Shown in pieces: positions 4,766 through 63,432 of a stretch of DNA of 64,000 nt. The translations under genes and the position numbers were made by a program. This DNA comes from Raillietiella orientalis. Lineage: Eukaryota. The notes below the pieces were generated by a model. The model saw only the letters and a list, made by a program, of their open reading frames with translations. It did no database searches and was not told where the DNA came from. The number at the start of each line of letters is the position of its first letter. Within the stretch, counting starts at the first letter, position 1. The stretch is from NCBI GenBank assembly GCA_036172245.1, contig JAYWIR010000008.1, positions 1,612,001 to 1,676,000 on the forward strand. The letters run 5' to 3'.

Positions 4766-5339
4766 TTAACCCTTTGGGAGCGGAGCTCATCAGATTTGAA
4801 CGTTCTGCGTTGACGGCACGCGAGTCGTAGGGACGACCTCTGTGGACGGAACGCTTTTTCGCGTGTCGCTTACTCTGTCAGGGGTGCCGACTGACTTTAT
4901 AAAGTGCTCTTTATAAAGTTACCATTGTAATTGTTCATTTACACCACATGAAACAAAATGGTTTCATTTTTACCAGGAATACATTGTTTATTTAAAAGTT
5001 ACAATTATAGTTCCAATAAAATCAACAATTCATTTGGGTGCGGTACAATATAATACATTACATACGACATCTCTGTAATATTGTGCCATTCTGGTTTTTT
5101 CGAAGTGACTGAAAAAACGAGAATAATTGGCCGATATAAATAGGTTTTTGTTTACTGCCGTTGCTAAGGGAATTATAGTAACTTATGTGTATGCGTCCAT
5201 CTCAAACGTGGATAGTGTTTAACTTTTGCCGCGAGGATAAGGTAGAAACACTTCCCAAACGCATTTATAGTCTCCACAGTGTCCACACCGATAATTTTCG
5301 CCCAACCCATATATGCGTCCATGGCACTCAAGGGGTTAA
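4766..5339. mobile_element. Non-autonomous piggyBac-type insertion with TTAA target duplication
   Basis: TTAA-CCCTTTGGGAGC ... GCACTCAAGGGG-TTAA (TIR 9/12 match). The AT-rich interior contrasts with its GC-rich surroundings. Minus strand has FYLILAAKVKHYPRLRW, resembling the piggyBac L.ILMG.VK.P...YW motif. Confidence 0.55.
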
Positions 5340-13496: not shown

Positions 13497-13833
13497 GTGC
13501 ACAACAAGCAGCATAGCACAACAGTTGCAGACACCAAGACAGTGACATCAGGAGCTTCTAAGATAGAGGCAGTGGGTAACCATGTTTTCAAAGTAACACA
13601 GGTATTGCTGGAGAACGGTGAAATGGCTGGTCATGAAGAATTGACTTTTCATGATAAGAAACAGTTTTTTGAGAGGGAAATGAAGCAGCAACAAGAGCCT
13701 CAAGTCAAAACTACAGGCATGCTTGCTTTTACGTTGCACGGCCAATAGCTAAACTTTGATATGTCGCCAGGGAATTCGGTTTTCTCAGTAAGAATGGTTG
13801 AGGAAGAAGGTGAGACACCATTCAAGAATTCAT
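13497..13833 (+). pseudogene. Inverted, intron-containing partial duplicate of scrib 3' exons (source 15232-15578)
   Basis: Aligns by eye to the reverse complement of 15232-15578, including the short introns. About 20 substitutions, one small indel and a 15-bp deletion. Two GT donors became GC and one AG acceptor became CG. Confidence 0.92.
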
Positions 13834-14146
13834 TTACAAGATTCCTCTTGTACAAATCGCCCGTACACAAGCAAACTAGGGCACTGCAACAGAACTCGAT
13901 TAAACAGCTGCATGGATGGTTATACTTTGTAAGAACTCTTTGTGACCGCTGAAAGGCACACCGCCCGTACACCACTGTAGGGCGGGACCTTCGGTACTCG
14001 CCGGCAGAAGCAGGGGAGCAAATAAGAATCTCGAATGAGGGTGGACCCTGCTACCTGCTTAATGAACACTATAATGTTCAATAAGCAACCGCTGAACTTT
14101 CTAAAGAGTGACCCGAGCCAACGGACTCGAGTCATTCCACTTATGA

Positions 14147-14152
14147 TTTATT
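14147..14152 (-). promoter_or_regulatory. Candidate polyadenylation signal (AATAAA) of scrib
   Basis: TTTATT on + strand, ~330 nt downstream of the scrib stop codon. Confidence 0.35.
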
Positions 14153-14477
14153 TACTACACATGCATGCACTTCTCTCTATGGAAGGCAAAAAAACTCCCA
14201 GTAGTTCAAATTCCTTCTACCAAGATTGGATTTTAAATACGTGTGCGATTGTTAGAAACTGGTCAATAGAATTCTTCAGACATGGAATGATATGCTGGCA
14301 CCAACACGTAAGGTTGCAAACGAACAGTCTATGAAAGTAAATAACTGTATTCATCTAATTTACCACAGTAAGAACCTTAAAGCACAACTTTTTTTTTTGT
14401 GTTTTTTTTTTTGGCCCCAAGCATCGAAGTAATCGTATTATAGATAAACTGAAGGTGTGCACAGGTTGAAATGATTG

Positions 14478-33025
<18,548 letters not shown>

Positions 33026-38372: not shown

Positions 38373-40015
<1,643 letters not shown>

Positions 40016-61886: not shown

Positions 61887-62070
61887 ATAAATAAATTAGG
61901 CAAGTAAATACAAGAGCTGAGAAAACAAAAGAAGCGTTTATGCTCAAATTTTAACTATGTAAAACAAAGCACACGAAAATAGCAAAATAAACCTTTTAGC
62001 ATTTAAAATGTATTAATTTTCATAATTTTCCACGGAAAACTTTCCGCGCAGCACACGTTCGGCGGGCAGT

Positions 62071-63432
62071 CCATGGGCCGATGTTCGGCGGAAGACGGGT
62101 GCTCGGTGGAGTGTCCATGGGCCGATGTTCGGCGGAACACGGGTGCTCGGTGGAGTGTCCATGGGCCGATGTTCGGCGGAAGACGGGTGCTCGGTGGAGT
62201 GTCCATGGGCCGATGTTCGGCGGAAGACGGGTGCTCGGTGGAGTGTCCATGGGCCGATGTTCGGCGGAAGACGGGTGCTCGGTGGAGTGTCCATGGGCCG
62301 ATGTTCGGCGGAAGACGGGTGCTCGGTGGAGTGTCCATGGGCCGATGTTCGGCGGAAGACGGGTGCTCGGTGGAGTGTCCATGGGTAGATTTTCGGCGGA
62401 AGACGGGTGCTCGGTGGAGTGTCCATGGGTAGATGTTCGGCGGAAGACGGGTGCTCGGTGGCGTGTCCATGGGCCGATGTTCGGCGGAAGACGGGTGCTC
62501 GGTGGAGTGTCCATGGGTCGATGTTTGGCGGAAGACGGGTGCTCGGTGGCGTGTCCATGGGTCGATGTTTGGCGGAAGACGGGTGCTCGGTGGAGTGTCC
62601 ATGGGTAGATGTTTGGCGGAAGACGGGTGCTCGGTGGAGTGTCCATGGGCCGATGTTCGGCGGAAGACGGGTGCTCGGTGGAGTGTCCATGGGTAGATTT
62701 TCGGCGGAAGACGGGTGCTCGGTGGAGTGTCCATGGGTAGATGTTCGGCGGAAGACGGGTGCTCGGTGGCGTGTCCATGGGCCGATGTTCGGCGGAAGAC
62801 GGGTGCTCGGTGGAGTGTCCATGGGTCGATGTTTGGCGGAAGACGGGTGCTCGGTGGAGTGTCCATGGGTAGATGTTTGGCGGAAGACGGGTGCTCGGTG
62901 GCGTGTCCATGGGTCGATGTTCGGCGGAAGACGGGTGCTCGGTGGAGTGTCCATGGGTAGATGTTTGGCGGAAGACGGGTGCTCGGTGGAGTGTCCATGG
63001 GCCGATGTTCGGCGGAAGACGGGTGCTCGGTGGAGTGTCCATGGGTCGATGTTTGGCGGAAGACGGGTGCTCGGTGGAGTGTCCATGGGTCGATGTTTGG
63101 CGGAAGACGGGTGCTCGGTGGAGTGTCCATGGGTCGATGTTCGGCGGAAGACGGGTGCTCGGTGGAGTGTCCATGGGTAGATGTTTGGCGGAAGACGGGT
63201 GCTCGGTGGAGTGTCCATGGGCCGATGTTCGGCGGAAGACGGGTGCTCGGTGGAGTGTCCATGGGTCGATGTTTGGCGAAAGACGGGTGCTCGGTGGAGT
63301 GTCCATGGGTCGATGTTTGGCGGAAGACGGGTGCTCGGTGGAGTGTCCATGGGTCGATGTTCGGCGGAAGACGGGTGCTCGGTGGAGTGTCCATGGGTCG
63401 ATGTTCGGCGGAACACGGGTGTTCGGCGGACA
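62071..63432. repeat. GC-rich 44-bp tandem minisatellite, ~31 units
   Basis: Unit CCATGGG(CC/TA/TC)GATGTT(C/T)GGCGGAAGACGGGTGCTCGGTGG(A/C)GTGT repeated head-to-tail with no spacers. Confidence 0.98.

What the first reader, a model, noticed from the sequence alone, without database searches (positions are those of the whole stretch)
13497..13833. Strong A/T->G/C substitution asymmetry in the dead scribble duplicate
Seen: in a manual alignment to the genic source (15232-15578), about 16 of ~20 substitutions are A/T in the gene and G/C in the copy, mostly A->G and T->C transitions on both strands. Three are G<->C and only one is G/C->A/T. Direction is anchored at sites that must be ancestral in the gene: GT donors became GC and an AG acceptor became CG. 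Established: pseudogenes in most eukaryotes drift toward AT. Inference: DNA outside the gene body evolves under a GC-ward regime such as GC-biased gene conversion or an unusual mutation/repair spectrum. Methylation-driven AT drift in the genic copy may contribute but cannot explain the splice-site changes.
Basis: partly seen in the sequence, partly recalled or inferred. Interest (0 to 1): 0.72.

Follow-up and report, generated by a model that had tools for sequence, protein, structure and literature searches.

The report
Dead gene copy drifting toward GC
A broken, flipped copy of a piece of the scribble gene in an arthropod has mutated mostly from A/T to G/C, and dead transposons and mitochondrial inserts elsewhere in the genome show a milder form of the same pull, strongest at TpA steps, which may explain why non-genic DNA here is GC-rich and TpA-poor.

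Summary
Observation confirmed: an inverted, intron-retaining duplicate of a scribble fragment differs from the gene at 20 sites, 16 A/T(gene)->G/C(copy) against 1 reverse (Fisher p=0.004). Seven W->S and no S->W changes lie at constrained sites, so most of the pull is on the copy; perhaps 5-6 of 20 differences arose in the gene. No outgroup or reads were available, so I polarised substitutions in two AT-rich MITE families and 21 NUMTs: equilibrium GC 0.58, 0.60 and 0.49, strongly uneven between loci (0.25-1.0). The copy (0.91, CI 0.60-1.0) lies in the upper tail. In all three sets TpA->CpA/TpG is 1.4-2.2x faster and the reverse 0.4-0.7x slower than other contexts; rates from the MITEs simulate GC 0.55 and TpA o/e 0.41-0.47, as observed in non-genic DNA (0.55, 0.45). 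Genes are CpG-poor and AT-rich; DNMT1 is present. Best reading: sequence from a methylated gene relaxing under a neighbour-dependent GC-ward fixation or repair bias (honeybee-like gBGC, TpA-centred). Conversion versus mutation is untested. The scan noted GC-ward, TpA-poor decay before on other DNA of this genome.

The parts
13497..13834 (+). Inverted, intron-retaining, disabled duplicate of a scribble fragment (three exon pieces, two whole introns, start of a third); GC 0.426, flanks CpG o/e 1.16 and 0.85
15232..15578 (-). Source segment in the scribble/lap4 gene, encoding the conserved C-terminal motifs ([17 protein letters not shown]); GC 0.380, CpG o/e 0.17
15474..15506 (-). Inferred 33-nt intron (GT..AG, in frame, ends in a TAG stop); donor GT is GC in the copy, acceptor TAG is CAG
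   Evidence: not confirmed by RNA
15315..15358 (-). Inferred 44-nt intron; donor GT is GC and acceptor AG is CG in the copy; splicing restores the frame into FSFLS
14478..33019 (-). scribble/lap4 coding span (LRR, four PDZ, C-terminal motifs), CpG-poor and AT-rich
14147..14152 (-). Only AATAAA between the stop codon and the copy; suggests the copy lies just beyond the transcript end (inferred)
4766..5339 (.). AT-rich MITE with TTAA flanks and CCC..GGG ends (piggyBac-type, label recalled); its family served as the neutral-decay control

Best explanation
A DNA-level inverted duplication placed 338 bases of an AT-rich, CpG-poor (germline-methylated, inferred) scribble gene body just outside the gene, in DNA with normal CpG. 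Freed of selection, it relaxes towards the higher equilibrium GC of that compartment (shown for other dead sequences: about 0.55-0.60 on average, 0.7-0.9 at many loci). A large part of this pull is neighbour-dependent: TpA changes to CpA/TpG faster, and CpA/TpG changes to TpA more slowly, than other contexts (shown in three data sets). The near-reciprocal pattern is what a directional bias acting on T:G mismatches gives; I take it to be a GC-biased conversion-type fixation bias that varies between loci and is weak in methylated genes (inferred, not shown). A minority of the 20 differences are ordinary changes on the gene's lineage.
For: Constrained sites (non-synonymous plus splice): 7 W->S, 0 S->W; S->G at the FSFLS serine kept in 3 of 4 orthologues with an alignment there. 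piggyBac-type MITE, 25 lineages: 618/5847 up vs 230/3018 down, GC* 0.58 (0.54-0.62); hAT-type MITE, 21 copies: 342/3778 vs 111/1869, GC* 0.60 (0.55-0.66), 0.74 in flanks >=50% GC vs 0.45 in flanks <45%, rho 0.51, p=0.019. NUMTs: 7 of 19 with at least 8 changes have GC* 0.71-1.0, e.g. 28:3 and 49:8. TpA->CpA x2.24, 1.39, 1.73 and CpA->TpA x0.39, 0.66, 0.52; a one-parameter fixation-bias model gives 2.11/0.37, 1.42/0.67, 1.72/0.52. Effect holds per column with shared-clade variants merged (p=1.5e-10 and 0.0013). MITE rates simulate GC 0.553-0.558 and TpA o/e 0.41-0.47 against 0.549 and 0.45 observed in 366 kb; without the 3'-A effect GC is 0.483. Low-CpG DNA: GC 0.36, CpG 0.38, CpA 1.33; DNMT1 present. 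Honeybee precedent for neighbour-dependent gBGC and low crossover in methylated genes (PMC4406589, passages).
Against: Pooled NUMT GC* is only 0.49 (0.46-0.53) and 12 of 19 lie at 0.25-0.53; NUMT GC* does not follow flank GC (rho -0.12, n=19), nor does piggyBac-type GC* (rho 0.09). Recent private changes among four C33 NUMT paralogues run 15 up vs 23 down. Keeping only variants seen in <=2 copies lowers MITE GC* to 0.52 and 0.55 and removes the TpA excess (53/1926 vs 108/3921; 43/1008 vs 115/2770); this filter discards fast columns by construction, but it is a weaker result. TpA->ApA, which gBGC should not touch, is also somewhat raised (24/1926 vs 39/3921, 15/1008 vs 16/2770, 39/3117 vs 97/9768). 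In the scrib copy itself TpA enrichment is not significant (6 of 40 vs 10 of 175, p=0.086), the hAT reverse effect has a CI spanning 1, and 16:1 exceeds the average regime (p=0.02-0.045). No polymorphism, recombination or methylation data.
Confidence: 0.55

Rival explanations
1. Same compartment contrast, but caused at the mutation or somatic-type repair level: T:G mismatches in TpA/CpA context are resolved towards C:G, or TpA is intrinsically more mutable, in unmethylated DNA, with no role for meiotic recombination.
For: A repair-direction bias also raises one direction and lowers the other (inference). TpA->ApA and TpA->GpA are raised too. The TpA share of transitions is even across copies (p=0.93 and 0.40) although total GC* is not (p=0.004 and 3e-6), as if the TpA effect were a constant background.
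Against: Forward and reverse factors fit a one-parameter fixation model in all three sets; strong locus-to-locus heterogeneity in GC* is expected of a recombination-linked force; mutation is AT-biased in most eukaryotes (established knowledge).
Confidence: 0.27
2. The asymmetry is mainly AT drift of the methylated gene after duplication, plus chance in a sample of 17.
For: Neutral sites differ three times as often as non-synonymous ones; gene fragment has CpG o/e 0.17; 2 neutral-site differences are CpG in the copy and TpG in the gene.
Against: 7:0 at constrained sites (p=0.003 at GC* 0.35); only 4 of 16 changes give a CpG in the copy and 2 of these are anchored as copy-derived; independent dead sequences drift GC-ward.
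Confidence: 0.08
3. Targeted TpA hypermutation (adenine deamination) of duplicated or foreign DNA, as proposed for viral inserts of Bigelowiella natans; a reverse of fungal RIP.
For: Same dinucleotide and direction (bioRxiv 10.64898/2026.01.13.699255, abstract and passages); all my control sequences are repeats or inserts.
Against: Only 6 of 16 changes are at TpA and 2 of those are transversions; excess is about 2-fold, with no hypermutated copies and no strand coordination (adjacent hits on the same strand 160 of 309 and 41 of 102); a deaminase cannot slow CpA->TpA; TpA o/e is 0.45 in 325 kb not matched as repeat against 0.42 in 41 kb of repeats (masking was local and incomplete).
Confidence: 0.05
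4. GC-biased ectopic conversion between the two inverted arms (1.4 kb apart) erases S->W changes in the copy and leaves W->S changes where the gene is constrained.
For: Inverted geometry; 3 of 10 splice-dinucleotide positions differ; such conversion was suggested for another locus of this genome (note e1-7591350, not checked).
Against: The gene arm is not GC-enriched (0.380 vs 0.380 for 15579-17000); neutral sites differ more, not less, than constrained ones; indels persist and no long identical tract; the splice hits are explained by their TpA steps.
Confidence: 0.05

Closest known systems
Honeybee GC domains with strong, neighbour-dependent GC-biased gene conversion (Wallberg et al. 2015, PMC4406589; passages read)
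   Same: Arthropod with gene-body methylation; CpG-poor genes set against non-genic DNA under a W->S bias dominated by transitions; bias depends on the neighbouring base.
   Different: In the bee the favoured product is CpG (o/e about 1.65) and the genome is 34% GC and far from equilibrium; here CpG o/e is 0.86, non-genic DNA is 55% GC and near the simulated equilibrium, and the disfavoured step is TpA (o/e 0.45). The bee case rests on allele frequencies and a recombination map; none exist here.
TpA->CpA/TpG hypermutation of integrated viral DNA in Bigelowiella natans (bioRxiv 10.64898/2026.01.13.699255; abstract and passages read)
   Same: Same dinucleotide, same direction, similar TpA o/e (0.45) in the affected DNA.
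   Different: There about 1000-fold, episodic, confined to foreign regions and exclusively at TpA; here about 2-fold, even across copies, with a slowed reverse change and a general W->S component.
General TpA depletion of eukaryotic genomes and the CpG-decay by-product model (Simmonds et al. 2013, PMC3829696, abstract and passages read; Duret and Galtier as cited there)
   Same: TpA is under-represented and more so at high GC.
   Different: Here TpA loss is deepest where CpG is not depleted and MITE CpGs are not hypermutable, so it is not a by-product of CpG decay, and it is seen directly as a substitution asymmetry in non-coding DNA.
Unprocessed (DNA-level) pseudogene fragment
   Same: Local duplicate with introns, frameshifting deletion and lost splice sites.
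   Different: Decays GC-ward instead of AT-ward.

Membership tests
GC-biased gene conversion regime | Excess of W->S over S->W substitutions per site in neutral DNA | tested here: met
   MITE GC* 0.58 and 0.60; NUMTs 0.49 pooled, 7 of 19 at 0.71-1.0
GC-biased gene conversion regime | W->W and S->S changes unaffected | tested here: inconclusive
   TpA->ApA raised 1.25x, 2.6x and 1.26x on small counts
GC-biased gene conversion regime | W->S variants segregate at higher derived frequency than S->W | not testable with these tools
   No population reads could be laid on the locus
GC-biased gene conversion regime | Strength follows recombination rate | not testable with these tools
   No map; proxy flank GC correlates for hAT-type copies only
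Invertebrate mosaic gene-body methylation | CpG depletion with CpA/TpG excess in gene bodies, not outside | tested here: met
   CpG o/e 0.38, CpA 1.33 in 26 kb vs 0.86, 0.98 in 366 kb; window profile follows scrib
Invertebrate mosaic gene-body methylation | DNMT1 encoded | tested here: met
   G000:C11 locus, E 6e-62 to solved DNMT1; second locus is DNMT2; no DNMT3 among 4 matches
Invertebrate mosaic gene-body methylation | 5mC measured at genic CpG | not testable with these tools
   No bisulfite or modification data
Bigelowiella-type TpA hypermutation / RIP-like defence | Changes almost exclusively TpA transitions | tested here: not met
   4 of 20 changes in the copy are TpA transitions; 266 of 508 T>C in the larger MITE set
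Bigelowiella-type TpA hypermutation / RIP-like defence | Episodic, very high rate in a subset of copies | tested here: not met
   Per-copy TpA transition fraction 0.01-0.19, no heterogeneity or strand runs
Bigelowiella-type TpA hypermutation / RIP-like defence | Confined to foreign or repeated DNA | tested here: inconclusive
   TpA o/e 0.45 outside locally detected repeats vs 0.42 inside; masking incomplete
Unprocessed pseudogene fragment | Introns retained and coding capacity disabled | tested here: met
   Both introns present, 14-nt deletion, three splice dinucleotides lost
ADAR-edited retrocopy | Spliced copy with A>G on one strand only | tested here: not met
   Introns kept; A>G 8 and T>C 6

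The most novel reading that the evidence does not exclude
This arthropod (probably a pentastomid) has a genome-wide, TpA-directed mismatch-resolution bias (T:G in TpA/CpA context driven to C:G, in meiotic conversion or in repair) that operates outside methylated genes and by itself lifts non-genic DNA from about 48% to 55% GC and halves TpA: an animal counterpart of context-specific very-short-patch repair, and a second kind of neighbour-dependent gBGC after the honeybee's CpG-favouring one.
Probability: 0.3. Interest if true: 0.75.

Novelty: new variant of a known kind. Interest (0 to 1): 0.5.

Why it matters
The locus alone is a 20-substitution example. The regime behind it matters more: GC-ward decay of dead DNA breaks the usual AT-drift assumption used to date pseudogenes and repeats, and a reciprocal TpA<->CpA bias measured directly in non-coding DNA bears on the open question of why genomes lose TpA. 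A genome with 36% GC methylated genes beside 55% GC unmethylated DNA, many NUMTs and old MITEs is a clean system for separating conversion from mutation once population data exist.

Tried and rejected
Outgroup polarisation: nearest scribble proteins are at most 66% identical, too far for DNA. Sequencing runs: none was listed, so splicing, expression and polymorphism stay open. Search for more gene-fragment duplicates with 19.9 kb of scrib gave 7 short matches, one usable 91-bp piece with 2 W->S and 1 S->W: uninformative. Raw NUMT-versus-mitochondrion counts are confounded by synonymous mitochondrial change and were replaced by non-degenerate sites. One search used ATP6 in a wrong frame and one search had two hAT-type copies reversed; both were redone. 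Consensus artefact from decayed ancestral CpG rejected: 16 CG among 1342 observations at majority-TA columns and no CpG hypermutability. Structured RNA in the copy: z -0.40. Intronisation in the gene (copy ancestral at the 33-nt intron) considered because the copy reads through it for 95 codons; not excluded without RNA or outgroup, but GTA->GCA and TAG->CAG are the commonest TpA changes. Bacterial-type N6/N4 methyltransferase: no match. One uracil-DNA glycosylase family match was not examined. About 15 older COX1 NUMT fragments listed were not analysed.

Full report
OBSERVATION. Self-comparison of the window finds one duplicate of scribble DNA: 13497-13834 on + matches 15578-15232 on -, 88% identity; the genome search finds no third copy (2 matches). 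In gene-sense orientation the 20 substitutions are A>G 8, T>C 6, A>C 2, G>C 2, C>G 1, C>T 1, with a 14-nt deletion and small indels. That is 16 of 215 A/T sites against 1 of 132 G/C sites (Fisher p=0.0039), an implied equilibrium GC (GC*) of 0.91, CI 0.60-1.0, if all changes are on the copy.

WHAT THE PIECES ARE. The gene is scribble/lap4 on the minus strand (tblastn with 5 of the 120 listed homologues), coding from 33019 to a stop near 14478, with one AATAAA at 14152, so the copy probably lies just beyond the transcript. The duplicated stretch spans three exon pieces, introns of 33 nt (15506-15474) and 44 nt (15358-15315) and the start of a third; splicing them gives an open frame through motifs seen in orthologues. 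The introns are inferred. The copy keeps them, so it is a DNA-level duplication, not a retrocopy. Mitochondrial COX1 of the assembly is closest to pentastomids (73-74%, next hits 71%), so the host is probably a tongue worm; nothing close enough to serve as a DNA outgroup turned up.

POLARITY. Sites under constraint in the gene carry 7 W->S changes (two GT donors, one AG acceptor, four amino-acid changes) and no S->W change; P is 0.003 at GC* 0.35, 0.044 at 0.555 and 0.21 at 0.74. GC donors do occur (recalled), so the AG->CG acceptor and the S->G change in FSFLS are the firmest anchors. Synonymous and intronic sites differ more often (12 of 137) than non-synonymous ones (5 of 185; p=0.022), so by inference about 5-6 of the 20 differences may belong to the gene's lineage. 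Only 4 of the 16 changes give a CpG in the copy, two of them anchored as copy-derived, so CpG decay in the gene is a minor part.

COMPARTMENTS. Over 464 kb around the window, 15 of 232 two-kb windows have CpG o/e below 0.6 and mean GC 0.37; 144 have o/e above 0.8 and mean GC 0.53. Low-CpG DNA (26 kb): GC 0.361, CpG 0.38, CpA 1.33, TpA 0.68; GC-rich DNA (366 kb): GC 0.549, CpG 0.86, CpA 0.98, TpA 0.45. The scrib source has CpG o/e 0.17; the copy's flanks 1.16 and 0.85. The genome encodes DNMT1 (E 6e-62 to solved structures) and DNMT2. This is the signature of invertebrate gene-body methylation (established knowledge; described for the bee in PMC4406589); methylation itself was not measured.

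INDEPENDENT TEST OF THE REGIME. (a) piggyBac-type MITE: 30 of 49 matches fetched, 5 near-duplicates dropped, star-like tree; against the majority base, 618/5847 W->S and 230/3018 S->W, GC* 0.58 (0.54-0.62), with heterogeneity p=0.004 and no link to flank GC. (b) hAT-type MITE (label recalled): 21 of 41 matches; 342/3778 vs 111/1869, GC* 0.60 (0.55-0.66), heterogeneity p=3e-6, 0.74 in 7 copies with flanks >=50% GC and 0.45 in 6 with flanks <45%. (c) NUMTs: 83 DNA matches to the mitochondrial contig, 33 blocks assembled from the loci held, 21 kept as separate lineages; private changes at non-degenerate positions of 7 genes give 584/12885 vs 344/7323, GC* 0.49 (0.46-0.53), heterogeneity p=5e-10; of 19 with at least 8 changes, 12 lie at 0.25-0.53 and 7 at 0.71-1.0, and GC* falls with CpG decay (rho -0.50, p=0.03). 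COX1 invariant residues alone (13 NUMTs) give 0.49. NUMT GC* does not follow flank GC but falls with insert length (rho -0.53, p=0.02, one of three tests). So dead DNA here does not show ordinary AT decay on average, many loci match the scrib copy (28:3, 49:8, 34:3, 29:2), and the copy is in the upper tail: P(>=16 of 17) is 0.02, 0.045 and 0.28 under the three rate sets. Against: four recent C33 paralogues show 15 up vs 23 down, and a <=2-copies filter lowers MITE GC* to 0.52-0.55.

THE TpA COMPONENT. TpA->CpA/TpG runs at 266/1926 vs 242/3921 for other T>C (piggyBac-type), 94/1008 vs 186/2770 (hAT-type) and 150/3117 vs 271/9768 (NUMT); CpA/TpG->TpA at 24/907 vs 85/1263, 19/651 vs 38/856 and 44/2273 vs 164/4425. 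Factors are x2.24, 1.39, 1.73 forward and x0.39, 0.66, 0.52 reverse, close to a one-parameter fixation-bias model (hAT reverse CI includes 1). The effect is spread over columns, survives merging of shared-clade variants, and is not a decayed-CpG artefact; it disappears under the <=2-copies filter, which removes fast columns, but the NUMT test uses private variants only and shows it. Evolving random DNA under the pooled MITE rates gives GC 0.553-0.558, TpA 0.41-0.47, ApA 1.13-1.16, GpA 1.16-1.23, CpG 0.76, CpA 1.13, against 0.549, 0.45, 1.25, 1.27, 0.86, 0.98 observed; CpA and CpG fit least. Without the 3'-A effect GC is 0.483. In the scrib copy 6 of 16 W->S changes hit TpA (40 of 215 sites; p=0.086), including all three splice-dinucleotide changes, since these donors read GTA and the acceptor TAG. 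TpA->ApA is also somewhat raised, which a pure W->S bias does not predict.

MECHANISM. Shown: the asymmetry; a GC-ward average regime with strong locus heterogeneity; a reciprocal TpA/CpA context effect; composition near the simulated equilibrium. Inferred: methylation of the gene and not the copy; a conversion-type fixation bias (0.55) rather than a mutation or repair spectrum (0.27). Gene-side drift (0.08), targeted TpA deamination (0.05; no bursts or strand runs) and arm-to-arm conversion (0.05; gene arm not GC-enriched) fit worse.

COMPARISON. It works like the honeybee regime (PMC4406589, passages), where gBGC is neighbour-dependent and methylated genes recombine less, but the context is TpA, not CpG; membership in gBGC is untested on its two defining population features. 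The dinucleotide signature matches Bigelowiella TpA hypermutation (bioRxiv 10.64898/2026.01.13.699255, abstract and passages) but fails its exclusivity and burst features. PMC3829696 (abstract and passages) treats TpA/UpA loss mainly as selection on cytoplasmic RNA and notes that CpG decay does not account for all TpA depletion. Ten library searches listed no report of a reciprocal TpA<->CpA bias in an animal's non-coding DNA or of a pentastomid nuclear substitution pattern; the library lacks most subscription papers, other papers were seen as listings only, and no supplements were read. Earlier notes of this scan report GC-ward, TpA-poor decay and sharp GC compartments on other DNA of this genome; they are leads, and one of them prompted the context test.

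VERDICT. Real; a new variant of a known kind; interest 0.5.

Noticed in passing
window 14000-33000: scribble has very short introns (33, 42, 44 nt inferred from frame and homology) beside kb-sized ones.
   Followed up: partly
G000:C282 and C285; 54 COX1 matches genome-wide: Two near-identical 9-kb mitochondrial contigs (G only 6.7% on one strand, with an extra duplicated segment between COX1 and COX2) and an unusually large load of NUMTs, several re-duplicated in the nucleus (three to four copies on C33).
   Followed up: partly
G000:C18:3642276-3644054 (L082): This NUMT has an excess of G<->C transversions (21 of 214 G/C sites at invariant COX1 positions), more than any other class; C>G is highest after T in NUMTs overall. 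Three of 20 scrib-copy changes are G<->C too.
   Followed up: no
G000:C220:419-4300 (L072): The one NUMT with clear CpG decay (16 of 40 CpG sites) and AT-ward drift (GC* 0.25) although its flank is about 50% GC; probably methylated.
   Followed up: partly
19 NUMTs: Equilibrium GC looks bimodal and is higher in short inserts than in long ones.
   Followed up: partly
window 51426-52246 and 54094-54914: 821-bp inverted repeat pair at 99.8% identity bounding a 3.5-kb element; arms belong to an abundant family with a tRNA B-box-like motif (label recalled).
   Followed up: no
window 62069-63430: GC-rich tandem array, 31 copies of a 44-bp unit, 95% matches.
   Followed up: no
window 38373-40015 (-): Second CpG-poor gene upstream of scribble with TMEM184-like reading frames (label recalled, not searched).
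   Followed up: no
L043:1501-1591 (G000:C1:2345523-2345613): A 91-bp, 97% identical copy of scribble intronic DNA (window 15954-16044) on another contig.
   Followed up: yes
window 13834-13975: The copy's 3' junction carries a small inverted repeat and an 11-bp word repeated about 100 bases further on, suggestive of templated repair at insertion.
   Followed up: no
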